DNA of 33,058 nucleotides from an uncultured Mollicutes bacterium (GCA_900547045.1 URFB01000001.1:1-33058); one strand, 5' to 3'; numbered from the stretch's first letter, positions 1 through 26,314 are shown. Made by a program: numbers and translations. The notes: generated from the sequence alone by a model not told the origin.

Positions 1-249
1 TCTTTTCGGCAGTTTATCATGATTAATGAAAGGTAATGAACTACTTAGAATTAAGTTTGAATTGTTTGAATGGATTATGCCATAATGCAAATTAAGATAA
101 TCACCAGAATTATAGTTTAATTCGTCCCAGCTTAATGAATTTGTACTAAAATAAGTAAAATGATTATAAAAATTTACTTCTATCCAATCTTCTTCAAATC
201 CTTTGAACCTTAATTTTGGTACCTTATTGTTTTTATTTGAGGATTAAGT
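1..249 (-). pseudogene. hsdS: Type I restriction-modification specificity subunit (HsdS) fragment: conserved N-terminal motif plus the beginning of a target-recognition domain. It has no canonical start codon and continues past the left edge.
   Basis: My own translation of the minus-strand frame ending at nt 1 gives LNPQIKNNKVPKLRFKGFEEDWIEVNFYNHFTYFSTNSLSWDELNYNSGDYLNLHYGIIHSNNSNLILSSSLPFINHDKLPKR. PKLRFKGF..W and HYG.IH are hallmark HsdS motifs. There is an in-frame stop at 250-252 and no ATG/GTG/TTG before the motif. The frame overlaps the integrase 3' end by 17 nt. Confidence 0.6.
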
Positions 250-1144
250 TATCTAAGGTTTTAACAGCTTTTCTCTTAGTATTAAATTCACTATGTACAT
301 ATATGGAAATGGTTATATTTACTGATGCATGTCCTAATAGTTCCGATACAGTTTTAATATCAACTTTGTTTTCAATAAGCCTTGTAGCAAAAGTATGTCT
401 TAATGCATGAAAAGATGTTTTATTTATTTTTAATTTTTTCAAAAGTGTTAAATAAATTTTTCTGTAATTTCTTGGTTCGGTAGGAACAGAAGTAGAAGTT
501 AAGAAATAAATATCTCGCTTTGCTGGTTTTAATTTAATTAGAAAATCATATAGCGTATTTGATATAGGTATTTCTCTAAGACTATTGCTTGTTTTAGGTG
601 TAGTTATTGTTATTTTGGATTTTTTCCCTTTTTCACATATTCTTTGTAGAGTTTTATTAACAACGATAATTCGCTTTTTTAGGTCGATATCAGACCATTT
701 AAGAGCACATAACTCACCAATACGTAAACCTGTCATTAACGAAAGGATAATCCCACAATACTTTTGATTATCGTTACTAAGAATATAATTCATAATGGAT
801 TTTTGATCAGTTCTACTTAAAATTGCCACTTTCTTTTTCTTACTAGTGGCAGGTAAATCTAAATCAATAAACAAAGGCTGGTAACTATTTATTTTTGCAT
901 CACGTTTTAATGAAAGCTTAATAAGCAAAACCATTTCATGAATAACTGTTGTGGAAACTTTATTTTGTAGTAAAGAATCGCAATATTCTTGAATAATTTT
1001 ATTTGTTAAATCAGATATGGGGATTTTTCCTTTATCTTCATCTAAATGATTTTGAATAAGATTTGAATATCTTACGTATGTTGACTCCTTAAGGTAAGCC
1101 TTTTTTGCTTGAACATACGAAATCAAGCATTCTTTTAATGTCAT
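233..1144 (-). CDS. int: Tyrosine recombinase / phage integrase (303 aa)
   Basis: Catalytic signature is intact: LMTGLRIGEL (Arg), HALRHTFATRL (His-x-x-Arg), LGHASVNITISIYVH (His...Tyr). N-terminal SAM-like core-binding domain. AAGGAGG precedes the ATG. Confidence 0.9.
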   Translation of the reverse strand: MTLKECLISYVQAKKAYLKESTYVRYSNLIQNHLDEDKGKIPISDLTNKIIQEYCDSLLQNKVSTTVIHEMVLLIKLSLKRDAKINSYQPLFIDLDLPATSKKKKVAILSRTDQKSIMNYILSNDNQKYCGIILSLMTGLRIGELCALKWSDIDLKKRIIVVNKTLQRICEKGKKSKITITTPKTSNSLREIPISNTLYDFLIKLKPAKRDIYFLTSTSVPTEPRNYRKIYLTLLKKLKINKTSFHALRHTFATRLIENKVDIKTVSELLGHASVNITISIYVHSEFNTKRKAVKTLDNLILK

Positions 1145-2276: not shown

Positions 2277-2891
2277 TTGAAAACACGTAAAACATCAAGT
2301 AACCAAAGGCAAACTTACACTTATCATTTTGATAACGGAGACAAGGTAATCATTGAGCCAGGTAAGTCAACAACAATTTATGCATCAGGAGGTAGTGCGG
2401 TAGTAATCGATGAAACTATCACTGATGTAACAATCAAAAAGCTTCATTTATGTGACGATGCAGAAGTAAGGTCAAACCTTAAATACATCAATTGTGAAGA
2501 TGAAAAAAACAGAAAGAAACGAATTGGAAACAAAAAGCAATGGGCTAAGGACCATCCTGAACAACCACAGGAGTTAAATCCATACAATCATCCAGAAAGA
2601 ATTTTAAGTTTGGATTTCTTTGGCTCAAATGGTGATGAAGATTCGGATAAATCACGCTTGCAATATCAAATAGCCAAAGAAGCTGATAGCGATAATTGGT
2701 TAGAAGAAAAAATAGTAGAAGTTAGGGATTTTGTAGCTACATTACCTGAAACAATGCAACAAACATATGACCTTATATTTGTTAAAGGATATAAACAATG
2801 TGAAATGTGTAAGATGCTTGGCTTAACAAAAGGTACTGTATCGGAGCGAGTAAAAACTTTAGAGAAAAAGATCAAAGAAAAATTTTGCTAA
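2277..2891 (+). CDS. Early protein with a C-terminal sigma-70 region-4-like HTH (TTG start)
   Basis: C-terminus QQTYDLIFVKGYKQCEMCKMLGLTKGTVSERVKTLEKKIKEKF resembles sigma region 4 / LuxR-type HTH. The N-terminal two-thirds have no recognisable family. Confidence 0.6.
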   Translation: MKTRKTSSNQRQTYTYHFDNGDKVIIEPGKSTTIYASGGSAVVIDETITDVTIKKLHLCDDAEVRSNLKYINCEDEKNRKKRIGNKKQWAKDHPEQPQELNPYNHPERILSLDFFGSNGDEDSDKSRLQYQIAKEADSDNWLEEKIVEVRDFVATLPETMQQTYDLIFVKGYKQCEMCKMLGLTKGTVSERVKTLEKKIKEKFC

Positions 2892-10435: not shown

Positions 10436-10440
10436 TGTCT

Positions 10441-10700
10441 ATACACTGGTCTTTCTTAAAAGTATTGTGTATAAGACTTCAAAAGACGTGCTTGTCTTCC
10501 TCTTAGATTTTTGAGTGAGACATGCCGAGACTTTGAATAAGACAACAAGACTTTGCAAATATTGGCCAGATTCTTGCAGTCTTATGGAAAATACCGCCAG
10601 ATTCTTCGTGTCTAAAAGGTCTTAGACAACTGTCTTTTAGTGAAGTCTTGTGGAAAAGACATGGTGGTCTTAGGATGTCTTCCTCAAATTTATACACAAA
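10441..10700. repeat. Iteron-like cluster of GTCTT/AAGAC pentamers and longer duplicated words
   Basis: About 16 GTCTT/AAGAC copies. Exact duplicates: GCCAGATTCTT (10565, 10596), GGTCTTAG (10618, 10666), TGTCTTCCTC (10493, 10676). TATACAC/GTGTATA inverted repeat at 10440/10468. Confidence 0.6.
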
Positions 10701-10730
10701 AACGATGAAATCTAATAATAATTAAAATGT

Positions 10731-10795
10731 TGACACGCTCTGTCACTCAATGTCACTCTCTGTCACATTGTGCCTTTCTTAAAGTGTGCTATAAT
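10731..10795 (+). promoter_or_regulatory. Four helically phased TG(A/T)CAC hexamers followed by an extended -10 promoter
   Basis: TGACAC at 10731 and TGTCAC at 10741, 10751 and 10761 (exact 10-bp spacing). TTGTGC at 10768-10773, then a 16-nt spacer, then TGcTATAAT at 10787-10795. Confidence 0.55.
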
Positions 10796-10883: not shown

Positions 10884-11390
10884 ATGAAACGCAAAGATAT
10901 TTATGAAACTTGGGAACAAAATGGTGAACTAAATAAAGTGTTAGCTTTCATCAAAGAGTGTGCTTCAAATTTAGTAACTCAAAGAGAAATGTGTGAATAT
11001 CTTGGTATCACTGAAGTTTGCTTCTCAAATTTAAAGAAGAAACATCCTGAACTACAAAAGATGATGGATGATGCAAAACTGGATTTAAAAAATAAGTTAG
11101 TAAATGCAATGGTTAAAAAAGCATTAGGCTTTGAAATTGTTGAAGAAGAACAATTTATTGAAGATGCTGGTAAAGGTGAAAAACAAAAGAGGAAAATCCA
11201 TAGAACTAAAAAGCAAGTTCCACCAGATTATAAATCTATTGTTTATTTGTTAACTAAGAAATTCGGTAAAGAGTTTAGTGAGCGATATGAAGAAATAATG
11301 CTCGCTGAAAAGAAATTAGAACAAGCTAAGGAGGTCTGGGAAAATGAACAAAATAAACAACAAGCTGAATTTGATTCAGATGAATATTGA
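10884..11390 (+). CDS. HTH protein resembling GP3-type small terminase / DNA-packaging proteins
   Basis: MCEYLGITEVCFSNLKKKHPELQ (HTH followed by a 'kkhPef' motif) and a later VPPDYKSIVYLL, as in gp3-like TerS. Start set at the ATG at 10884, behind GAAGGTGAT. Confidence 0.45.
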   Translation: MKRKDIYETWEQNGELNKVLAFIKECASNLVTQREMCEYLGITEVCFSNLKKKHPELQKMMDDAKLDLKNKLVNAMVKKALGFEIVEEEQFIEDAGKGEKQKRKIHRTKKQVPPDYKSIVYLLTKKFGKEFSERYEEIMLAEKKLEQAKEVWENEQNKQQAEFDSDEY

Positions 11391-12600
11391 TGATTTAGTA
11401 CTTTATGAAAATAATCCTAGAAACAACGATGGAGCAGTAGATGCTGTTGCTGCTTCAATTAATTCATTTGGATTTAAGGTTCCAATCATCATTGATAAAA
11501 ACAATGTGGTCGTATGTGGCCACACAAGAGTTAAAGCAAGTAAGAAATTAGGAATGACTGAAGTTCCTTGTATTGTAGCTGATGATTTAAATGAAGAACA
11601 AATAAAAGCATTTCGTTTAGCTGATAACAAGGTTAGTGAATTAGCTGAATGGAATATGGATAAACTTGCTGAAGAATTAAAGCAAATTGATATGGACATG
11701 CTTCAATTTGGATTTGAAGATTTAGAAAACTCACTTGAAAGAGATGTACTTGAAGATGAATTTGATGAAGAGGAAGAATTACCTGTTAATCCCTATTCTA
11801 AAAAGGGTGATGTTTTTATCTTAGGTAAACACAGATTAATGTGTGGTGATTCAACAATCAAAGAAGATGTTGATAAATTAACTGATGGAAAGTTAGCAGA
11901 TATGGTTTTCACTGATCCTCCTTATAACGTTGATTATGAAGGTGGAGTTGATGACAATGGTTCAAAAATGAAAATTCAAAACGATAAACAATCAGATGCT
12001 GATTTTAAAGAATTCTTACAAAAGGCATTTGATAACATGGCACTTCATTGTAAAAACGGGGGAGCTATCTATTGTTGCCATGCTGATACTGAAGGTTTGA
12101 ATTTTAGAACTGCTTTTATTAATGCAGGTTTCAAATTAGCTGAATGTTTGATATGGGTTAAAAATTCTTTAGTTCTTGGTCGTCAAGATTATCATTGGCG
12201 TCATGAGCCGATCCTCTATGGATGGAAAGAAGGAGCTGGTCATTATTTTATCGATGACCGTTCACAAGATACAATTTGGGAATACAACAAACCGAAGGTT
12301 AATGATTTACATCCAACAATGAAGCCACTTGAACTTGTTGGTAGAGCAATTAAGAACTCTAGTAAAAAAGGTGAATTAGTCCTTGACCTATTTGGTGGTT
12401 CAGGTTCAACAATGATAACTTCTGAACAAATTGATAGAAGTGCAATGCTTATGGAATTAGATGAAAAATATGTCGATGTGATAGTTAAGAGATACTTAAG
12501 ATTCGTTCAAAGTTACGATAACTGCTACCTTTTAAGAAATGGTGAAACTATAGCTCTTAAAGATATCCCTGATTATCACATCGATTTTGAAACAATTTAA
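11344..12600 (+). CDS. ParB-like N-terminal domain fused to a beta-class DNA methyltransferase (probably N6-adenine)
   Basis: LVLYENNPRNND...CGHTRVKA (ParB/Srx-like). Motif IV FTDPPYNV lies upstream of motif I DLFGGSGST. Confidence 0.85.
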   Translation: MNKINNKLNLIQMNIDDLVLYENNPRNNDGAVDAVAASINSFGFKVPIIIDKNNVVVCGHTRVKASKKLGMTEVPCIVADDLNEEQIKAFRLADNKVSELAEWNMDKLAEELKQIDMDMLQFGFEDLENSLERDVLEDEFDEEEELPVNPYSKKGDVFILGKHRLMCGDSTIKEDVDKLTDGKLADMVFTDPPYNVDYEGGVDDNGSKMKIQNDKQSDADFKEFLQKAFDNMALHCKNGGAIYCCHADTEGLNFRTAFINAGFKLAECLIWVKNSLVLGRQDYHWRHEPILYGWKEGAGHYFIDDRSQDTIWEYNKPKVNDLHPTMKPLELVGRAIKNSSKKGELVLDLFGGSGSTMITSEQIDRSAMLMELDEKYVDVIVKRYLRFVQSYDNCYLLRNGETIALKDIPDYHIDFETI

Positions 12601-15322: not shown

Positions 15323-16285
15323 ATGAAAGAAAAAATTGAAAAGCAAATTGAAGAAATGAAGAAGCAAACAATCGGTGTTGAAATTGAAATGAACAACATC
15401 ACAAGAATGGATGCAGCAAAGGTGGTCGCAGCATACTTTGGAACAAGACCATGGTACGCAGCAAGAGATTATGGTTACGATGCTTGTGCTTGCAAGGATA
15501 GAAAAGATAGAGTTTGGAAGTTCCAAAAGGATGTATCAATTGCAGGACCTGATAGTGAAAAATGCGAAATGGTTACACCAATCTTAACCTACGATGACAT
15601 TGAGGACTTACAAGAGATTGTTAGAACATTAAGAAAAGCTGGAGCAAAAAGCGATGCTTCAAGAGGATGCGGAGTTCACATCCATGTAGGTGCTAACGGA
15701 CACACACCTAAAACCTTAAGAAACCTAACAAACATTATGGCTTCACACGAAAGCTTAATTATTGAAGCCTTAGGAATTGACAATTTTAGAATTGATAGAT
15801 ACTGCCAAACAGTAGACCCTAGATTCTTAAAAGCAGTCAACAAAAAGAAACCTCAAACAATGAGCCAATTTGCAGATGTTTGGTACGAAAGTCAAAATTG
15901 CGACTCAGGAAGAACAATGCATTACAATAGCAGCCGCTACCACATCCTAAACTTCCATGCAACATTCACAAAAGGAACAATTGAATTTAGATGCTTTGAA
16001 TTCAAGAGTCCAAAAGATGGAAAACAAAATGGACTTCACGCAGGACAATTAAAAAGCTACATTCAATTCTGCTTAGCCTTAAGCCAAATGGCAAAAGAGG
16101 TAAGCGGAGCTTCATCAAAACCTCAACAAAATGAAAACCCTAAATACGCAATGAGAACTTGGTTATTAAGACTAGGCTTCATTGGCGAGGAATTCAAAAC
16201 AGCAAGAGAAATATTAACGAAAAATTTAAGAGGAGATGCAAGCTTCAGAAGTGGGTTAAGACCTGCTCATCAAGCTGCAATCTAG
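15323..16285 (+). CDS. Amidoligase_2-type (glutamine-synthetase/GCS2-like fold) COOH-NH2 ligase
   Basis: Motif series GVEIEM, CEMVTP, GVHIHVG, YHILNFH, IEFRCFE matches the acidic/His/Arg active-site strands of the putative amidoligase family. 320 aa. Confidence 0.7.
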   Translation: MKEKIEKQIEEMKKQTIGVEIEMNNITRMDAAKVVAAYFGTRPWYAARDYGYDACACKDRKDRVWKFQKDVSIAGPDSEKCEMVTPILTYDDIEDLQEIVRTLRKAGAKSDASRGCGVHIHVGANGHTPKTLRNLTNIMASHESLIIEALGIDNFRIDRYCQTVDPRFLKAVNKKKPQTMSQFADVWYESQNCDSGRTMHYNSSRYHILNFHATFTKGTIEFRCFEFKSPKDGKQNGLHAGQLKSYIQFCLALSQMAKEVSGASSKPQQNENPKYAMRTWLLRLGFIGEEFKTAREILTKNLRGDASFRSGLRPAHQAAI

Positions 16286-16297
16286 GAGGTCAAAACA

Positions 16298-16774
16298 ATG
16301 GGAAAAATGTATTACTTAGCTTATGGTTCAAACCTTAATGTTGAACAAATGAAAAAGAGATGCCCTGATGCAGTGGTAGTAGGAACATCAGTTCTCGATG
16401 GCTACCGATTAATGTTTAAAGGAAGTAAAACAGGTTCATACCTTACTATTGAGAAAGCAAAAGGGCATCAAGTTCCTTTAGGAGTATGGGAGGTAAGCGA
16501 GCGTGACTTGGCAAGACTCGACGTTTACGAGGGCTACCCTGCGTTTTATTATCGAAAGCGAGTAAATGTGCCACTCAAAGATAAAAGCGGCACACAGGCC
16601 AACGTCGAAGGAATTATCTACATCATGCATGAAGATAGAAAGCTTGGATGTCCAACCAATTATTATTTTGATACTTGCCTTAAAGGTTATAACGACTTTG
16701 GTTTTGATATTGAAATTTTAATGGAAGCATTTATTTATAGTGTAGGAGTGGAGGTATTTAAAAATGGAAACTAG
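16298..16774 (+). CDS. Gamma-glutamylcyclotransferase-fold (AIG2/GGACT-like) protein
   Basis: N-terminal YLAYGSNL...RCP, GYRLMF, and LDVYEGYPAFYYRK containing the conserved catalytic Glu context. Confidence 0.75.
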   Translation: MGKMYYLAYGSNLNVEQMKKRCPDAVVVGTSVLDGYRLMFKGSKTGSYLTIEKAKGHQVPLGVWEVSERDLARLDVYEGYPAFYYRKRVNVPLKDKSGTQANVEGIIYIMHEDRKLGCPTNYYFDTCLKGYNDFGFDIEILMEAFIYSVGVEVFKNGN

Positions 16775-18604: not shown

Positions 18605-18760
18605 ATGGGAAATAAAGAACACAAAGCAAGTAAAGGTAAAGTATGGAAATCGAAAATTGATGGAGCGTACTTATCGGATTTGTTAATTTTAGGTAAAGAA
18701 GATTCAATCAATAACTACGAAGAGGTTGATCCACCAGTAATAGAAGATGATGAATCATGA
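18605..18760 (+). CDS. Hypothetical 51-aa protein (basic N-terminus, acidic C-terminus), below the ORF-track cutoff
   Basis: My own translation gives MGNKEHKASKGKVWKSKIDGAYLSDLLILGKEDSINNYEEVDPPVIEDDES. GGAGGA lies 5 nt upstream. Its stop overlaps the terL ATG (ATGA). Confidence 0.45.
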   Translation: MGNKEHKASKGKVWKSKIDGAYLSDLLILGKEDSINNYEEVDPPVIEDDES

Positions 18761-20397
18761 ATTATTTAAAAGAGTATTATTCTGAAATTCAAAAAGGAAA
18801 TATCATCATAGGAAATGAACTAAGGGTTATCTTAGATAGGTTAATAGCAGATTTAGATAATCCTAGATACACCTATGATGAAAAGCCTGGACAAATAAGA
18901 ATTGATTTCATTGAGACATTTTGTAAACATACTAAGTCACCATTCAATGGCCAACCTTTTATTCTTGAACTATGGGAAAAAGCAATGCTTCAAACTGCCT
19001 ATGGATTTAAGTTTAAAGATACAGGATTAAGAAGATTTAATGAGGTTATATTACTGATTGCTAGAAAGAATGGTAAGACAACGTTTGTTGCAGGTATTGA
19101 CCTTGCTGAATTTTTCTTATCTAAAGGTGGAGTTGATATTGTGTGTGCTTCGAACACAAATGATCAGGCTTCGATCCTTTTTGAAGAAATCAATAATATG
19201 AGAGAGCAGTCAAAGGCTCTTTCAAAAGCTAATCGAAGCAAGAAAAATATATTCTATATTTATTCACCAAGAAACAAAAATAAGATTAAAAAATTATCTG
19301 GTCAATCACGTAACTTGGATGGATATAACATAGAGGTTGGCTGTATTGATGAGGTGCATCAAATGACTGATTCAAAAGTATATGATGCAATTAAACAATC
19401 ACAATCAACTAAAGAAGAACCGCTGATTTTCATTATTACAACAGAAGGTAATGTAGTCGGTGGTTTTTTAGACAAAAAGCTCGAATATTGTAGAAAGATG
19501 ATAAAGAGTGAAATTACTGATGAGCGTGTGCTTCCTTGGCTTTATACTCAGGATAGTGAAAATGAAATCTATTCAGATAAATCATCATGGCAAAAATCAA
19601 ATCCATCCCTTGGTAAAGTAAAGACAGTACATTACCTTGAAGATATTATGAACAAAGCTAAAAATGATTTATCGACTAGACTTACAATGCTATGTAAAGA
19701 TTTCAATATTAAACAGCTTGAATCAGGTACTTGGTTAACCTTTGATGAGCTTAATAATGAAACTAAATTTGATATCGAAGAAATAAGAGATACCTACGCA
19801 GTTGCAGGTGTTGATTTATCTGCGACAACCGATTTAACAGCTGCAGTTATTGTAGTAGTTAAAAATGGTAAGAAGTATGTCCTTCCTCATTTCTTTATGC
19901 CAAGTGAAGTTTTACAGAAGCGAATTGAAGAAGATAGCGTTCCTTATGATATCTGGGTTAGAAAAGGATTTATAACACTAACTGAAGGAAGTAAAAATGA
20001 CTTTTCAAAGGTCACAGAATGGTTTTTACACCTTGTTAGAGATTATAAAATAAGACCTTTGTGGGTTGGTTATGATCCATGGAATTCACAATATTGGGTT
20101 GATGAAATGGAAGAAGCTGGCTTTACTTTAGAGAAGATAAGACAAGGTGTTTATACATTATCAGAACCAATGAAACAGCTAGAGGCTGACATCAAAAATA
20201 AGGATGTTATTTATGATAATAATCCAGTCTTAAAATGGTGCTTAGCTAATACTCAAGCAAAAGTAGATATCAATGGAAACATACAGCCAAGTAAGGTTAA
20301 TTCAAGGTTTAAACGAATAGATGGTGCAGTTGCATTAATCATCGCTTATGCAGTTTTGAATAGATACATAAAAGAGTATGAAAATATGCAAAGTTAG
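18757..20397 (+). CDS. terL: Terminase large subunit (Terminase_1 type)
   Basis: Walker A-like LIARKNGKTTF, Walker B VGCIDEVH, C-terminal RNaseH-like nuclease region. 546 aa. Followed by the portal gene. Confidence 0.9.
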   Translation: MNYLKEYYSEIQKGNIIIGNELRVILDRLIADLDNPRYTYDEKPGQIRIDFIETFCKHTKSPFNGQPFILELWEKAMLQTAYGFKFKDTGLRRFNEVILLIARKNGKTTFVAGIDLAEFFLSKGGVDIVCASNTNDQASILFEEINNMREQSKALSKANRSKKNIFYIYSPRNKNKIKKLSGQSRNLDGYNIEVGCIDEVHQMTDSKVYDAIKQSQSTKEEPLIFIITTEGNVVGGFLDKKLEYCRKMIKSEITDERVLPWLYTQDSENEIYSDKSSWQKSNPSLGKVKTVHYLEDIMNKAKNDLSTRLTMLCKDFNIKQLESGTWLTFDELNNETKFDIEEIRDTYAVAGVDLSATTDLTAAVIVVVKNGKKYVLPHFFMPSEVLQKRIEEDSVPYDIWVRKGFITLTEGSKNDFSKVTEWFLHLVRDYKIRPLWVGYDPWNSQYWVDEMEEAGFTLEKIRQGVYTLSEPMKQLEADIKNKDVIYDNNPVLKWCLANTQAKVDINGNIQPSKVNSRFKRIDGAVALIIAYAVLNRYIKEYENMQS

Positions 20398-22234: not shown

Positions 22235-23386
22235 ATGAATTTAATGGCAAGAATGAGTGAAATTAACTCAAGATTAAATGAAATTAGAAGTGCATCAGAA
22301 AAAGAAACTGATGTTGAAAAATTGGCTTCAATGAGTAAGGAATGTGACTCACTTCAAGAAGAAAGAAAACAGCTTGAATCAAAGATGAACATTATGAACA
22401 AAACTGAAATGAAGCCTTTTAAAATGGAGGAAAATTCAATGAATAAAGAAATGCTAGAAAAGCGTGGTGTTGATTTAAAGGAAAAGAGAACTATCACTGT
22501 ATCTAGTGATGAGATTTTACTTCCTAACCATGTCGATAATAACTTAGCACCAGTTCCTTATGCTGAAGTTTCAACTTTAGTAGATAAAGTACATGTTGTT
22601 AATTTAGTCGGTGGTGAAACTTATACAAAGAGCTTTGTAAAATCTCATGGTGAAGCAGGCCTTACTGGTGAAGGTGAAGCCTACAATGAAACTGAACCTA
22701 AATTTGGTTATTGCACTATCACTAAGGTTAAGGTTACAGCTTATACTGAAATCACTGAAGAACTTGAAAAATTACCTGCAATTCCATACCAAGCAGAAGT
22801 TTTAAAGAATATCAATGTTTCTTTAAGAAAGAAGATCTCTCAACAAATCTTACATGGCCTTGGAACATCAAATACTTTTACAGGTATTTTCTCTGATAAG
22901 GCAGTCGCTTTGGCTGATTCAAAACCACTTGAAATTACTGAAATCACAGATTCGACTCTTGATGACATTGTATTTGCTTATGGTGGTGATGAAGAAGTTG
23001 AAGGTGGAGCAGTCTTAATTTTAAACAAAAATGATTTAAGAGCATTTGCTAAATTAAGAACTCCTGAAGGAAGAAAGGTACACACAATTGATTACAAGGC
23101 AGGAACTATTGATGGTATTCCTTATATCATTAATTCAAACTGTAAGGCAATTAGTGATCCAAATACTTCAGCAGGAGATTATTGCTTAGCTTATGGAGCA
23201 TTAACTAATTATGAAGTACCAGTATTCTCAGCAGTTGAGATTGCTAAATCAAGTGATTACAAATTTAAAGATGGCATCATTTGCTATAAATCATCTGTAT
23301 TCACTGGTGGTAATGTTGTAGGTTTCAATGGCTTCTTAAGAATTAAAAAGAAAGCTGCTGAAGTTAAATCTACATCATCAAAGTAG
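22235..23386 (+). CDS. Major capsid protein (HK97 fold) with an N-terminal coiled-coil delta domain
   Basis: 383 aa, coiled-coil N-terminus, position after the protease, typical HK97-family length and pattern. Confidence 0.85.
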   Translation: MNLMARMSEINSRLNEIRSASEKETDVEKLASMSKECDSLQEERKQLESKMNIMNKTEMKPFKMEENSMNKEMLEKRGVDLKEKRTITVSSDEILLPNHVDNNLAPVPYAEVSTLVDKVHVVNLVGGETYTKSFVKSHGEAGLTGEGEAYNETEPKFGYCTITKVKVTAYTEITEELEKLPAIPYQAEVLKNINVSLRKKISQQILHGLGTSNTFTGIFSDKAVALADSKPLEITEITDSTLDDIVFAYGGDEEVEGGAVLILNKNDLRAFAKLRTPEGRKVHTIDYKAGTIDGIPYIINSNCKAISDPNTSAGDYCLAYGALTNYEVPVFSAVEIAKSSDYKFKDGIICYKSSVFTGGNVVGFNGFLRIKKKAAEVKSTSSK

Positions 23387-23446
23387 GTTAAACAGATGGT
23401 CGTTTAAAGGTTGATGGAGTTTTCTGAAGCTTAACTAAGTAAGAAA

Positions 23447-23838
23447 GCACAATGAACAGAAATGAGTATAAGTAAAAAGGTACAATGAAATGAAAAGAGT
23501 ATGAGTATGATGGAACAATGAAAGGAAATTGAGTAAAAGAGTACAATGAAAGAAAAGCGAGTAAAAAAGTACAATGAAATGAAAGTGGAGAAAAGGTACA
23601 AGGAAACGACTAGGGGTTGACCGCAAGGCTTCCCCGAAAGGAGTACGAAGGAACAATCAAAGCAAGTAAAAGTAAGAAGGAATACTGAAAGTGAGTACGA
23701 GTAAAAAGGAATACTGAAAGAAAGTACAAGTAAAATGGTACAAAGAAAAGAAATGAGTAAAAGTAAAATGGAACAATGAACAGAAAAGAGTATAAGTAAA
23801 ACGGAATAATGAACAGGGATGCGGAATGTATGTAAAGA
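23447..23838 (+). repeat. Purine-rich degenerate tandem array (12 units of 27-33 bp) interrupted by a GC-rich GNRA-capped hairpin. Non-coding.
   Basis: The unit anchor ACAATGAA (or variants) occurs at 23449, 23482, 23515, 23543, 23571, 23598, 23653, 23682, 23711, 23740, 23773 and 23806. Hairpin: GGGG (23613-16)...CC-GCAA-GG (23621-28)...CCCC (23632-35). The plus strand is full of stops. Confidence 0.8.
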
Positions 23839-23851
23839 AAGGACGTTGTGT

Positions 23852-24151
23852 ATGAACATAAGAAATGATGACGATTTCTTAATTGAAATCAAGAAGGCTT
23901 TAATGATTCCAGCAATGGAGACATATGCAGATAGCGAGATAAAACTACATATTGAATCGTGTTGTCAATTGCTTATTTCGATAGGCGTTGATAAATCCAC
24001 AGTACGTAGCGATAATCCTCTTGTTAAAGGATTAATCTTGATATATGTAAAGACATTCTTTGGCTTCAAAAGTGATGGAAGTGTTAAGGAATTACCTTCT
24101 AATTTTGAGCTATTGGTCCGCCAACTTGCTCTTAATTCGGAGGAGTCCTAA
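23852..24151 (+). CDS. Head-tail connector (gp6-like) protein
   Basis: ~100 aa, first gene after the capsid gene, pattern typical of Phage_connect_1. Start trimmed to the ATG at 23852, outside the repeat array. Confidence 0.6.
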   Translation: MNIRNDDDFLIEIKKALMIPAMETYADSEIKLHIESCCQLLISIGVDKSTVRSDNPLVKGLILIYVKTFFGFKSDGSVKELPSNFELLVRQLALNSEES

Positions 24152-25198: not shown

Positions 25199-25774
25199 AT
25201 GGCAAATAATATTGTAACTTTTGGCCTTAAGAATGTTCATTATTCTAAGGCTACATTTAATCCTGTTGATGGAACTTGGTTGTTTGCTACACCAGTTGCA
25301 CTTCCAGGAGCACAAGAGTTTTCAAGTGATTTAATTGGTAGCTCAACACAGGTTTATGCCGATGATCAAGTAGTGGCTACATTAATTCAAAATGCAGGTA
25401 GAACTCTAACCTTAAAACTCACTGAATTAATTGATGAATTCAAAACTGATATTTTAGGTTATAAGAAACTTGATAATGGAAATCTTGTAGAAATTGTAAA
25501 TGCTGAAGTAGTTACTTTTGCATTAGGTTTTGAATTACAAGGTGATGCTAAGGCAAGAAGAACATGGTTTTATTTATGTACTGCCTCACCAATTAATGAA
25601 GCAACTAAGAGTAAAGCTGATTCAGTTGAAGCAAACTCAATCTCTTTAACAATTACAGCTAGACCTATTGCTATTGATGCAGATAATTACACAACACATA
25701 TTACAGCTTCGAAAGGAGACGCAAATTATGCGACATTCTTAAGTGTTGCACCAGTTTTGCCTGTGCTTAAATAA
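25199..25774 (+). CDS. Major tail protein (phi13/TP901-1-like)
   Basis: 191 aa. N-terminus NIVTFGLKNVHYSKATF is typical of phi13-family major tail proteins. Lies upstream of the chaperone pair and the tape measure. Confidence 0.75.
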   Translation: MANNIVTFGLKNVHYSKATFNPVDGTWLFATPVALPGAQEFSSDLIGSSTQVYADDQVVATLIQNAGRTLTLKLTELIDEFKTDILGYKKLDNGNLVEIVNAEVVTFALGFELQGDAKARRTWFYLCTASPINEATKSKADSVEANSISLTITARPIAIDADNYTTHITASKGDANYATFLSVAPVLPVLK

Positions 25775-26145
25775 TGGATAGTATTATTAAGATTGGAGGC
25801 CGTGAATTACCAGTTCATGCCTCATTAAAAACCTTAATCGATTACAAGTCTACCTTTGGTACTGATTTGTTTGAAGATTTAGATAAGATACAAAATATTA
25901 AAAGCGATTCTATTGGTAGCTTGTCAGGAGTTATTAATACATCGTTCCAAATTATTTATATCTTACATAAGCCTTATGCAAAAGAGAAAACATTTGTAGA
26001 GTTTATGGATACTTTTGAGTTTGGAGTGTTCCAAAGCACTGAAGCTATGAATGAATTAACTGGTGTATTTGGCTTACTCTTTCCAGGGACAAAAGAGCAA
26101 AGCAAAAGTCCCAGAGAAAGTAAAACGGAAGCATCAAGCGACTAG
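25774..26145 (+). CDS. Tail assembly chaperone (gpG-like)
   Basis: 123 aa, between the major tail and tape measure genes, TAATG coupling. Confidence 0.65.
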   Translation: MDSIIKIGGRELPVHASLKTLIDYKSTFGTDLFEDLDKIQNIKSDSIGSLSGVINTSFQIIYILHKPYAKEKTFVEFMDTFEFGVFQSTEAMNELTGVFGLLFPGTKEQSKSPRESKTEASSD

Positions 26146-26314
26146 TAATATCATATTTAATTTATCTCAAATGGGCATCTCACTAACGGATGCCTTTTTG
26201 ATTGAGATTGATACTTATTTTGAGCTTGTTGATTTGTTTATGGAGTCAATGGGAAGAAGTGAAAACTCATCAAGAGAGGCGACACAATCTGACATTGACA
26301 ATTTTTTACTATAG
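26063..26314 (+). CDS. Overlapping ORF in the +1 frame: probable gpT-like extension of the chaperone reached by programmed frameshifting
   Basis: The frame is open from 26063 and extends 169 nt past the gpG stop. There is no good independent SD. CAAAAG runs occur at 26090-26095 and 26103-26108. Confidence 0.5.
   Translation: MYLAYSFQGQKSKAKVPEKVKRKHQATSNIIFNLSQMGISLTDAFLIEIDTYFELVDLFMESMGRSENSSREATQSDIDNFLL

What the first reader, a model, noticed from the sequence alone, without database searches (positions are those of the whole stretch)
23430..23851. ~0.4-kb purine-rich tandem-repeat array with a central GNRA hairpin, non-coding, inside the head operon
Structural genes are normally tightly packed, yet ~465 bp between the capsid stop (23386) and the connector start (23852) lack any plus-strand ORF. 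They consist of 12 direct degenerate units with the consensus G(T/A)ACAATGAA-N-GAGTA-N-AGTAAAAG. The successive periods are 33, 33, 28, 28, 27, [55 with insert], 29, 29, 29, 33, 33 bp, which is roughly symmetric in length around the centre. The first and eleventh units differ at 2 of 32 positions. The sense strand is almost free of C apart from the AC in the anchor. It contains 13 GGA trinucleotides by my count, mostly at unit junctions, and many AAGGA/AGGAG SD-like words. The one GC-rich element is an imperfect hairpin, GGGGttgaCC-GCAA-GGcttCCCC (23613-23635), capped by a GNRA tetraloop. It will be transcribed at very high level with the late operon. Ideas to test: an RNA sponge or decoy for GGA- or A-rich-binding post-transcriptional regulators (CsrA-, Hfq- or S1-like), or for ribosomes; a protein-binding RNA or DNA scaffold; or a processing or stability element separating capsid mRNA from downstream genes. 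I know of no described phage element of this form.
Basis: partly seen in the sequence, partly recalled or inferred. Interest (0 to 1): 0.75.

Follow-up and report, generated by a model that had tools for sequence, protein, structure and literature searches.

The report
Conserved non-coding repeat array in phage
Between the capsid gene and the next head gene of a temperate gut-type phage lies a 465-base non-coding stretch of twelve purine-rich repeats around a small hairpin; it is conserved and under selection in two lineages of related phages, matches no known RNA or DNA element, and most likely acts as an unfolded RNA leader controlling the genes after the capsid gene.

Summary
Window 23387-23851 has no ORF on the + strand and holds 12 degenerate units (anchors ACAATGAA; periods 33,33,28,28,27,55,29,29,29,33,33) around a GNRA-capped hairpin (23613-23635). 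The same element, with 4-12 units, sits at the same capsid/connector junction in two clades of related uncultured phages and nowhere else in IMG/VR, GTDB genomes or JGI metagenomes. Other relatives have only a 10-25 nt spacer there. Thirteen versions of the 465-nt form, up to 4.1% divergent, never change unit number. Its diversity is about one third of neighbouring fourfold-degenerate sites. Units stay about 80% identical between lineages whose connector genes are 55-66% identical. As RNA it is the least structured 400 nt of the phage. The antisense ORF is a composition artefact. GGA is not enriched, so the CsrA-sponge idea fails. Type III antitoxin, CRISPR, minisatellite and Rfam memberships fail. 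Best guess (about 0.35): a cis-acting, structure-free RNA leader that offers repeated binding sites and a hairpin plus SD-like stabiliser, uncoupling downstream genes from the capsid gene. A trans-acting sponge RNA and a DNA-level protein-binding array are not excluded. The function is untested.

The parts
22235..23386 (+). Major capsid gene (context). Its stop codon is the upstream boundary of the element and also a recombination boundary.
   Evidence: Pfam PF05065, E = 7e-31. Diversity among the 465-nt group drops from 0.07-0.22 to 0.015 exactly at 23386/23387.
23387..23448 (+). 5' leader of the element, with a local predicted stem (AGUUUUCU...AGAAAGC). In lineages L021 and L099 the equivalent leader holds an intrinsic-terminator-like hairpin with a T-run.
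   Evidence: MFE and centroid structure. Terminator scans of L021 and L099. None predicted in the window.
23449..23612 (+). Left half of the array: units 1-6 (anchors at 23449, 23482, 23515, 23543, 23571, 23598). Unit grammar: ACAAUGAA-(A/C)N-(GAAAN)-GAGUA-(NNAGUA)-AAANGG(A/U).
   Evidence: TRF; register listing; unit profile from 67 distinct units.
23613..23635 (+). Central hairpin: GGGG/CCCC lower stem, internal loop, CC/GG upper stem, GCAA tetraloop.
   Evidence: Among the 465-nt versions the loop reads GCAA, GAAA or GUAA, always GNRA. In other lineages the homologous position holds a hairpin with a covarying upper stem and UUCG or GCAA loops.
23636..23643 (+). GAAAGGAG: the strongest anti-SD-complementary site of the region, immediately 3' of the hairpin, with no start codon at initiating distance.
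   Evidence: Duplex energy -12.4 kcal/mol with CACCUCCUUUCU; sequence read.
23653..23836 (+). Right half of the array: units 7-12 (anchors at 23653, 23682, 23711, 23740, 23773, 23806), including the recurrent variant GGAAUACUGAA.
23837..23854 (+). SD (GAAAGGA, 23837-23843), an 8-nt spacer and the ATG of the connector gene. There is no terminator between the array and the gene.
   Evidence: In 11 of the 12 other array-positive lineages listed the SD region reads AAGGAGTGTT (L011 and L028 have TAGGAGGTT instead), and it is absent from array-negative relatives.
23852..24151 (+). Head-tail connector gene (context): the first gene after the element, whose lineage the array follows.
   Evidence: Pfam PF24829, E = 3e-11; connector tree.
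23431..23892 (-). Antisense 153-aa ORF: not a gene but a by-product of the purine-rich sense strand.
   Evidence: 20% of dinucleotide shuffles give an equally long stop-free run. The antisense frame is interrupted in most other arrays, e.g. L021 81 of 123 codons and L174 82 of 147.

Best explanation
The element is a transcribed, non-coding intercistronic RNA: a long 5' leader of the connector, head-completion and tail part of the late mRNA. Its tandem 22-34-nt purine-rich units keep about 400 nt of RNA single-stranded and display 4-12 copies of one conserved motif (ACAAUGAA ... GAGUA ... AGUAAAA(N)GG) on both sides of a small tetraloop-capped hairpin. I propose that it works in cis. It replaces the ordinary 10-25-nt capsid/connector spacer, and so uncouples the very highly expressed capsid gene from the downstream genes. 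In some lineages a terminator sits in front of it. The repeated single-stranded motifs recruit a sequence-specific factor, either the 30S subunit through the weak AAAGG sites or an unidentified RNA-binding protein. The hairpin plus the adjacent strong SD-like GAAAGGAG would act as a 5' stabiliser of the downstream segment after endonucleolytic cleavage, as polypurine/STAB-SD stabilisers do in Gram-positive bacteria.

Shown: position, conservation, selection, lack of coding capacity and lack of structure. Inferred: transcription, factor binding, processing, and the effect on expression.
For: Position and orientation are constant. All true arrays found in IMG/VR, GTDB genomes and JGI metagenomes lie between the capsid stop and the connector SD, on the sense strand. 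No terminator separates the array from the connector. L021 and L099 have a terminator between the capsid gene and the array. Array-negative relatives have only a 10-25-nt spacer. The connector SD region AAGGAGTGTT is shared by both array-positive clades, in 11 of the 12 other lineages listed, and is absent from array-negative relatives.

Selection: pi is 0.022 in the array against 0.062 at fourfold sites of the co-inherited 2.3 kb downstream, and the bootstrap CI excludes 0. Unit number never changes in 13 versions up to 4.1% apart. Units are about 80% identical between lineages whose connector genes are 55-66% identical (shuffle control 64 +/- 2%).

RNA-level hints: the sense RNA is the least structured 400 nt of the phage (-30.8 vs -83.2 +/- 9.8 kcal/mol). 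The GNRA loop varies only at N. The central hairpin shows an upper stem that covaries (CCC/GGG, CUC/GAG, GG/CC) and UUCG/GCAA loop swaps between lineages. Mean anti-SD complementarity is stronger than in shuffles (at most 4% of shuffles as strong) in 10 of 13 arrays and peaks at the conserved AAAGG. GAAAGGAG follows the hairpin directly. Polypurine SD-like 5' stabilisers are documented (PMC2358910; references in PMC3997798).
Against: There are no expression data, so transcription, processing and any effect on stability or translation are inferred. A simple stabiliser or unstructured leader needs neither 4-12 copies nor such a conserved motif. The best-conserved part, ACAAUGAA, is not explained by SD-likeness. 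Strong SD-like sites are not enriched over shuffles. Individual central hairpins are not more stable than shuffles (z from -1.4 to +1.1). The covariation rests on very few sequences and is absent in the automatic alignment of another subfamily. L099 and L251 lack the central hairpin altogether. No partner gene tracks the array within +/-4 kb. Many related phages do without the element.
Confidence: 0.35

Rival explanations
1. Trans-acting sponge or decoy RNA. The late transcript, or a processed fragment of it, presents 4-12 single-stranded copies of one motif that titrate a host RNA-binding protein, such as a global regulator, a ribonuclease or a defence nuclease, during late infection.
For: It is multivalent, structure-free, sequence-conserved and strand-specific. 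No phage partner is encoded nearby, which fits a host target. There is a precedent for phage non-coding repeat RNAs that neutralise a host protein: pseudo-ToxI (PMC3475682).
Against: The specific CsrA/GGA version fails. No own promoter or terminator delimits a separate RNA. The element is strictly tied to the connector SD, which is what a cis element would show.
Confidence: 0.2
2. A double-stranded DNA array of protein-binding sites, like a centromere, iteron set, regulatory array or packaging accessory site (compare sopC 12 x 43 bp, or parC 5 + 5 repeats around a core), bound by a phage or host DNA-binding protein.
For: The layout is direct repeats of a conserved 8-11-bp core at 27-34-bp spacing, on both sides of a distinct centre. 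Unit number does not change.
Against: The whole unit is conserved, not only a core. The motif occurs nowhere else in the phage. The phage has an integrase and no partition operon, and its ParB-like domain is fused to a methyltransferase. The array follows the connector module, not the terminase/capsid module; whether it follows the replication module was not tested. There is no A-tract phasing near 10-11 bp. The tetraloop behaviour of the central hairpin points to RNA.
Confidence: 0.12
3. No function of its own. It is a tolerated repeat expansion at a permissive junction, perhaps derived from the connector's ribosome-binding region, that persists by linkage and serves at most as a stretch of homology where head and tail modules recombine.
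For: Many relatives lack it. The same junction holds an unrelated moron-like ORF in L051. A recombination boundary lies at its 5' edge. Array segments are exchanged between clades: the L011 and L012 central units differ at 2 of 64 nt while their connector genes are 61% identical. A unit resembles the connector start (ATGAACAGAAATGA vs ATGAACATAAGAAATGA).
Against: Diversity is one third of synonymous diversity, and there is no unit gain or loss in 13 versions. The array is uniformly retained in two deep clades. The motif is conserved well above the composition control. Recent exchange could inflate some of this apparent conservation.
Confidence: 0.1
4. A relay of mini-ORFs. The anchor CAAUGAA is an AUGA stop/start overlap preceded by AAAGG, so ribosomes leaving the capsid gene would terminate and reinitiate step by step across the array. 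This would deliver an attenuated flux to the connector gene, or stall on two-codon minigenes such as AUG AAA UGA.
For: The window array can be read as 15 consecutive short ORFs with six 4-nt overlaps and no gap above 17 nt. 76% of anchors contain ATGA and 87% contain TGAA.
Against: This is not beyond composition: steps 15 vs 11.8 +/- 2.3, overlaps 6 vs 3.2 +/- 1.7, untranslated bases 78 vs 106 +/- 36. Only the first AUGA of a unit is conserved. The AAAGG-to-AUG distance of 4 nt is too short for normal initiation (my knowledge of SD spacing). Unit lengths show only a slight excess of multiples of three (39 of 77).
Confidence: 0.07
5. The antisense strand encodes a 153-aa hydrophobic protein (23431-23892, minus strand).
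For: An ORF with a TTG start is listed.
Against: 20% of dinucleotide shuffles are equally open. The frame is broken in most other arrays. Its start would lie inside the connector gene, and the product is low-complexity L/F/S-rich sequence.
Confidence: 0.01

Closest known systems
Type III toxin-antitoxin antitoxin arrays (ToxI, AntiQ, CptI, TenpI) and the phage mimic pseudo-ToxI of PhiTE (PMC3401426, PMC3475682)
   Same: Non-coding tandem direct repeats of about 30-45 nt lying directly upstream of a gene. There is a phage-borne precedent that acts as RNA, and arrays can become mosaic by recombination.
   Different: ToxI-type repeats are nearly identical and fold into pseudoknots. They are followed by a terminator and a ToxN-family endoribonuclease gene, and they change copy number readily. 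Here the units are degenerate, of unequal length and unstructured. They are followed by a connector gene with no terminator, have a constant unit number, and have no cognate host array.
Polypurine / STAB-SD 5' mRNA stabilisers of Gram-positive bacteria and phage SP82 (Hue et al. 1995 and Agaisse & Lereclus 1996, cited in PMC3997798; katG example in PMC2358910)
   Same: A purine-rich, SD-like sequence in an untranslated region, not used for initiation, placed next to a processing site or hairpin. It is thought to bind 30S subunits and block 5'-to-3' decay. In the window, GAAAGGAG directly follows the hairpin.
   Different: Known stabilisers are single short sequences of 8-10 nt near a 5' end. 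This is a 220-465-nt array whose best-conserved motif (ACAAUGAA) is not SD-like. Strong SD-like sites are not enriched.
CsrB/RsmZ-type protein-sponge sRNAs
   Same: Multiple repeated short motifs in one RNA, and the general idea of titrating an RNA-binding protein.
   Different: Those are independent genes with their own promoter and terminator, and they display GGA in hairpin loops. Here GGA is neither enriched nor conserved, the RNA is unstructured, and it is embedded in an operon.
Plasmid and phage DNA repeat arrays (F sopC, R1 parC, iterons, P1 pac)
   Same: Several direct repeats with a conserved core, sometimes arranged in two sets around a central region.
   Different: Those are bound by a partner encoded next to them (ParB, ParR, Rep, terminase) and co-evolve with it. 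No such partner is nearby, the motif is unique to this junction, and the strand asymmetry and tetraloop behaviour suggest RNA.
Unstructured viral translational leaders such as the TMV Omega leader (my own knowledge, not checked here)
   Same: A leader made structure-free by near-absence of one base (G in Omega, C here). It contains short direct repeats; Omega has ACAAUUAC, similar to the anchor ACAAUGAA.
   Different: Omega is 68 nt long, sits at a 5' end and belongs to a eukaryotic virus. This element is 220-465 nt, internal to a bacterial operon, and has a central hairpin.

Membership tests
Type III TA antitoxin array / pseudo-ToxI mimic | Tandem array followed by a terminator and then a ToxN/AbiQ/CptN/TenpN-family toxin gene (criteria in PMC3401426) | tested here: not met
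   The next gene is a 99-aa head-tail connector (PF24829). No terminator lies between the array and the gene.
Type III TA antitoxin array / pseudo-ToxI mimic | Each repeat folds into a pseudoknot or otherwise structured antitoxin unit | tested here: not met
   The array is no more structured than shuffles (z = -0.67) and is the least structured part of the phage. MFE folding does not model pseudoknots, but the units have almost no pyrimidines to pair with.
Type III TA antitoxin array / pseudo-ToxI mimic | For a phage mimic: sequence similarity to a host antitoxin array | tested here: not met
CsrB/RsmZ-type GGA sponge | Many GGA motifs, enriched and conserved, presented in hairpin loops | tested here: not met
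   GGA 13 vs 13.5 or 9.7 expected. 45% of units have GGA. No hairpins. No Rfam match.
CRISPR array or solitary repeat units | Conserved repeats separated by unique spacers of similar length | tested here: not met
   Units abut each other without spacers.
Hypervariable minisatellite (VNTR) | Copy number varies among close relatives, with neutral or faster sequence change | tested here: not met
   13 versions: 12 of 465 nt and 1 of 466 nt, all with the same 12 units. pi is one third of the fourfold-site value.
Polypurine / STAB-SD 5' stabiliser | SD-complementary polypurine sequence not followed by a start codon at initiating distance | tested here: met
   GAAAGGAG at 23636-23643, -12.4 kcal/mol, with no ATG, GTG or TTG within 5-12 nt downstream. 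The weaker AAAGG of each unit lies 4 nt from the anchor AUG.
Polypurine / STAB-SD 5' stabiliser | Located at or near the 5' end of a primary or processed transcript and increasing its half-life | not testable with these tools
   Needs 5'-end mapping and half-life measurements.
Partition-site, iteron or pac DNA array | Cognate binding protein encoded next to the array and co-varying with it | tested here: not met
   No gene within +/-4 kb tracks the array. The array is unlinked from the capsid/terminase side. The window has an integrase and no ParA/ParB operon.
Partition-site, iteron or pac DNA array | Sequence-specific protein binding to the duplex repeats | not testable with these tools
   Needs EMSA or ChIP.
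Any Rfam family | Score at or above the family's gathering threshold | tested here: not met
   No hits in the window or in 12 other array loci. Only chance-level hits at E above 2.
Protein-coding gene, either strand | ORF conserved across homologous arrays | tested here: not met
   no + strand ORF under code 11 or code 4. The antisense open frame is explained by composition and is not conserved.

The most novel reading that the evidence does not exclude
The array is a new class of phage RNA: a structure-free, multivalent single-stranded platform of 4-12 tandem sites that is made in bulk with the late mRNA. It would capture a specific host RNA-binding protein, for example a ribonuclease, a translational regulator or an RNA-sensing defence factor. 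In doing so it would either protect the late transcripts or disarm the host. It would be a sponge embedded in an operon rather than a free-standing sRNA.
Probability: 0.2. Interest if true: 0.8.

Novelty: new variant of a known kind. Interest (0 to 1): 0.6.

Why it matters
Phage structural operons are usually read as tightly packed protein-coding DNA. Here 220-465 nt of non-coding sequence is kept under purifying selection at one precise gene junction in two deep lineages. Its repeat grammar matches no catalogued RNA family, antitoxin array, CRISPR repeat or DNA binding-site array. If it is a cis-acting leader, it shows a new way for phages to set the ratio of capsid protein to the proteins encoded downstream of the capsid gene: a modular, tunable intercistronic RNA in place of gene overlap. 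If it is a sponge or decoy, it would add a new type of RNA-based host manipulation. Either way it is a compact test object: a short deletable element with natural 4-12-unit variants and natural array-free relatives.

Tried and rejected
- Antisense ORF: explained by composition and not conserved.
- Alternative genetic code (TGA sense): still no ORF.
- CsrA/GGA sponge: GGA is neither enriched nor conserved.
- Strong ribosome sponge: only weak AAAGG complementarity, and strong sites are at shuffle level.
- Mini-ORF relay: the chain exists but is within the shuffle range.
- Shared promoter or operator motif, including the idea that GGAAC is the -35 box of the phage's sigma-like factor: the unit occurs nowhere else in the window, and there is no excess of sigma-70-like promoters.
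- Global RNA structure: z = -0.67 on the sense strand and -0.12 on the antisense strand.
- Rfam: nothing. tRNA or tmRNA: none.
- INPHARED: no DNA match. The best capsid relative is 42.6% identical (MT835660) and unannotated.
- Phage-encoded partner by gene-content association within +/-4 kb: only clade effects.
- Other genomic contexts for the unit: the single 18-mer hits in GTDB genomes are at chance level, and the two-anchor metagenome hits outside the family are unrelated coding sequence. Three-anchor hits in IMG/VR are coding acidic repeats of giant viruses.
- DNA bending: no 10-11-bp periodicity of A.
- Automatic alignment of the short central hairpins across subfamilies failed, so that comparison is by eye only.
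- Literature searches found no description of such an element.

Full report
**Context**

The window is a 33-kb temperate siphophage-like genome with 32.6% G+C. It carries an integrase (233-1144, minus strand) and a CI-like repressor, a sigma-factor-like gene, recombination and replication genes, and an HNH endonuclease. The late operon then runs TerL (18757-20397), portal, S78 prohead protease, HK97-type capsid (22235-23386) and, from 23852, a head-tail connector (PF24829) followed by head-completion and tail genes. All other junctions in this operon are -38 to +13 nt. The capsid/connector junction is 465 nt.

**1.

- TRF reports arrays of period 33/28/29/33 with scores of 114-136 at 23436-23816. 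Nothing else in the window scores above 57.
- The 12 anchors (ACAATGAA and variants) lie at 23449, 23482, 23515, 23543, 23571, 23598, 23653, 23682, 23711, 23740, 23773 and 23806.
- The hairpin GGGGTTGACC-GCAA-GGCTTCCCC is at 23613-23635.
- Purines make up 74.5% against 55.6 +/- 4.4% for the window, and C is 8.5%.
- No + strand ORF exists under code 11 or code 4.
- Two details need correcting. The 13 GGA are what composition predicts (13.5 from base composition; 9.7 +/- 1.9 in dinucleotide shuffles, p = 0.08). The hairpin is not more stable than shuffled sequence (z = -0.99).

**2. Distribution**

A capsid-based scan of IMG/VR returned 80 related loci. In most of them the capsid stop and the connector start are separated only by a 10-25-nt spacer with an SD. 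A subset carries a purine-rich insert of 221-465 nt at exactly this junction. One locus, L051, instead carries an unrelated small membrane-protein ORF with its own terminator.

True arrays were found only at this junction in this phage family. They include a prophage in an uncultured Bacilli MAG from rabbit gut (L174), human-gut contigs and an activated-sludge contig. All other hits were single chance matches or unrelated coding repeats. The unit occurs nowhere else in the window.

On a connector tree the array-positive phages form two clades, each uniformly positive, although their connector proteins are only 52-68% identical.

**3. Anatomy**

All arrays share one plan:
- a leader, which in L021 and L099 contains a terminator-like hairpin with a T-run directly after the capsid stop;
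- 2-6 units;
- usually a GC-rich central element;
- 2-6 further units;
- the connector SD, which reads AAGGAGTGTT in 11 of the 12 other array-positive lineages listed (L011 and L028 have TAGGAGGTT) and differs in array-negative phages.

From 67 distinct units, the unit is ACAAUGAA-(A/C)N-(GAAAN)-GAGUA-(NNAGUA)-AAANGG(A/U). It is a string of 5-6-nt modules. The 22-nt, 27-29-nt and 33-34-nt units differ by whole modules. Variable positions accept C and U freely, so the purine richness comes from the conserved motif rather than from a general composition constraint.

The central element differs between lineages but is usually a hairpin with a stable tetraloop:
- window: lower stem GGGG/CCCC, upper stem CC/GG, loop GCAA;
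- L011 and L012: GUUA-U-GG-UUCG-CC-C-UGGC;
- L087: GUUA-U-CCC-UUCG-GGG-CUC-UGGC;
- L242: CUC-UUCG-GAG;
- L094: CCC-GCAA-GGG.

RNAalifold on the last three counts two pairs changed on both sides. The comparison with L011 and L012 is by eye, because MAFFT misaligns such short stems. Among the 465-nt versions the loop reads GCAA, GAAA or GUAA, which is always GNRA. L099 and L251 have no central element.

**4. Selection**

- The 465-nt form exists in 13 distinct versions up to 4.1% apart. Twelve are 465 nt and one is 466 nt. No unit has been gained or lost.
- Array diversity (pi = 0.022, 6.7% segregating sites) is about a third of that at fourfold-degenerate sites in the co-inherited 2.3 kb downstream (0.062, 19.8%). 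It is closer to codon positions 1 and 2 (0.013, 0.010). The bootstrap interval excludes zero.
- Between lineages the connector genes are 55-66% identical in DNA, with third-position identity of 33-58%. Units still find an 80% identical counterpart, against 64 +/- 2% for composition-matched shuffles.

Recombination also plays a part. In the 465-nt group the capsid module switches between two types that are 72% identical, exactly at the capsid stop, while the array and everything downstream stay about 98% identical. The central 64-nt unit of L011 and L012 differs at 2 positions although their connector genes are 61% identical. The element is therefore maintained and exchanged. It is not a hypervariable minisatellite.

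**5. Physical and coding properties**

As sense RNA the array is the least structured 400 nt in the phage: -30.8 kcal/mol against -83.2 +/- 9.8 for 307 sliding windows. It is not more or less structured than its own composition predicts (z = -0.67; antisense strand -0.12).

The antisense 153-aa ORF is what a pyrimidine-rich strand gives by chance. 20% of shuffles are equally open, and the frame is broken in most other arrays.

Rfam has no match in the window or in 12 other array loci. There are no tRNA or tmRNA genes.

**6. Mechanism**

The conserved, strand-specific, multi-copy motif implies recognition by some factor. The structure-free sense RNA, the tetraloop behaviour of the hairpin, the fixed orientation, the tie to the connector SD, and the terminator that precedes the array in some lineages all make an RNA-level role in cis the best-supported reading. 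On this reading the element is a modular leader that replaces the normal short spacer. It uncouples the genes downstream of the capsid gene from the capsid gene. It probably stabilises or loads the downstream mRNA. In the window the strongest anti-SD-complementary site, GAAAGGAG (-12.4 kcal/mol), directly follows the hairpin and has no start codon at initiating distance. This resembles polypurine/STAB-SD stabilisers (PMC2358910; references in PMC3997798).

I put this at about 0.35. Nothing about expression is shown. The best-conserved motif, ACAAUGAA, is not explained. Per-unit SD-likeness is weak, about -4.5 to -5 kcal/mol, with no excess of strong sites.

**7. Rivals**

- A trans-acting sponge or decoy for a host RNA-binding protein (0.2) fits the multivalency and the lack of a nearby phage partner. 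Its CsrA version fails: GGA is present in 45% of units and is not enriched.
- A DNA-level binding array (0.12) fits the layout of repeats on both sides of a centre. It lacks a partner gene, lacks other copies of the motif, and does not explain the RNA-type hairpin features.
- A functionless expansion or recombination linker (0.1) fits the patchy distribution and the mosaicism. It does not fit the reduced diversity and the constant unit number.
- A termination-reinitiation relay of mini-ORFs is suggested by the AUGA in each anchor. It is not beyond composition.
- The antisense protein is rejected.

**8. Comparison with known systems**

The closest known phage element in form is pseudo-ToxI, and type III antitoxin arrays in general (PMC3475682, PMC3401426). 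The defining features of that family are a downstream terminator plus a ToxN-family toxin gene, structured repeats, and similarity to a host array. Each was tested and not met. Memberships of CRISPR arrays, CsrB-type sponges, VNTRs, partition-site or iteron arrays and Rfam families also fail. The only feature shared with a known functional class is the non-initiating SD-like polypurine site next to a hairpin.

I therefore file the element as a new variant of non-coding intercistronic leader or stabiliser elements. A real possibility of about 0.2 remains that it represents a new kind of operon-embedded protein-sponge RNA.

Noticed in passing
L051:1725-2181: At the same capsid/connector junction this relative has a 455-bp insert. 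It encodes a small protein with predicted hydrophobic segments (MPETDNKKPDIF...) and ends in a clear terminator (aaaggtgcaaccgcacctttttt). This moron-like cargo shows that the junction is a permissive insertion point.
   Followed up: partly
window 23380-23390 (capsid stop): There is a sharp recombination boundary. Among phages with near-identical arrays and downstream genes, the capsid module is either about 99% or about 72% identical to the window's, and the switch falls exactly at the capsid stop.
   Followed up: yes
L011:2239-2555 vs L012:5158-5380: The central 64-nt unit, hairpin included, differs at only 2 positions between phages from the two different connector clades, whose connector genes are 61% identical in DNA. 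Pieces of the array are exchanged horizontally.
   Followed up: partly
window 23449-23465 vs 23852-23871: Unit 1 (ATGAACAGAAATGA) resembles the first codons of the connector gene (ATGAACATAAGAAATGA). In L174 the connector starts ATGAGCAAAAG, against ATGAGTAAAAG in a unit. The units may derive from, or mimic, the connector's translation-initiation region. Significance was not tested.
   Followed up: no
window 10436-10769: This 334-bp intergenic region upstream of a TerS-like gene is full of short repeats (AGACTT/GTCTT words, and three 10-bp direct repeats TGTCACTC.. at 10741-10766). It may be a packaging or regulatory site.
   Followed up: no
window 2277-2891: An early gene has weak similarity to RNA polymerase sigma factors (PHROG 1740 and 351). 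The array unit was checked as a possible promoter motif for it and occurs nowhere else in the window.
   Followed up: partly
window 15323-16774: An amidoligase and a gamma-glutamyl cyclotransferase are encoded as adjacent genes between the HNH/terminase region and the structural genes.
   Followed up: no
window 11344-12600: A ParB-like N-terminal domain is fused to a DNA methyltransferase. It is not a partition protein, and the phage has an integrase.
   Followed up: no
window 25774-26314: Overlapping ORFs (25774-26145 and 26063-26314) lie just upstream of the 856-aa tape-measure-sized gene. This is the usual position of the frameshifted pair of tail assembly chaperones. Not examined.
   Followed up: no
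window 23560-23570 and other units: Several units contain the heptamer AAAAAAG, a classic -1 slippery sequence. It lies outside any ORF and is probably incidental.
   Followed up: no
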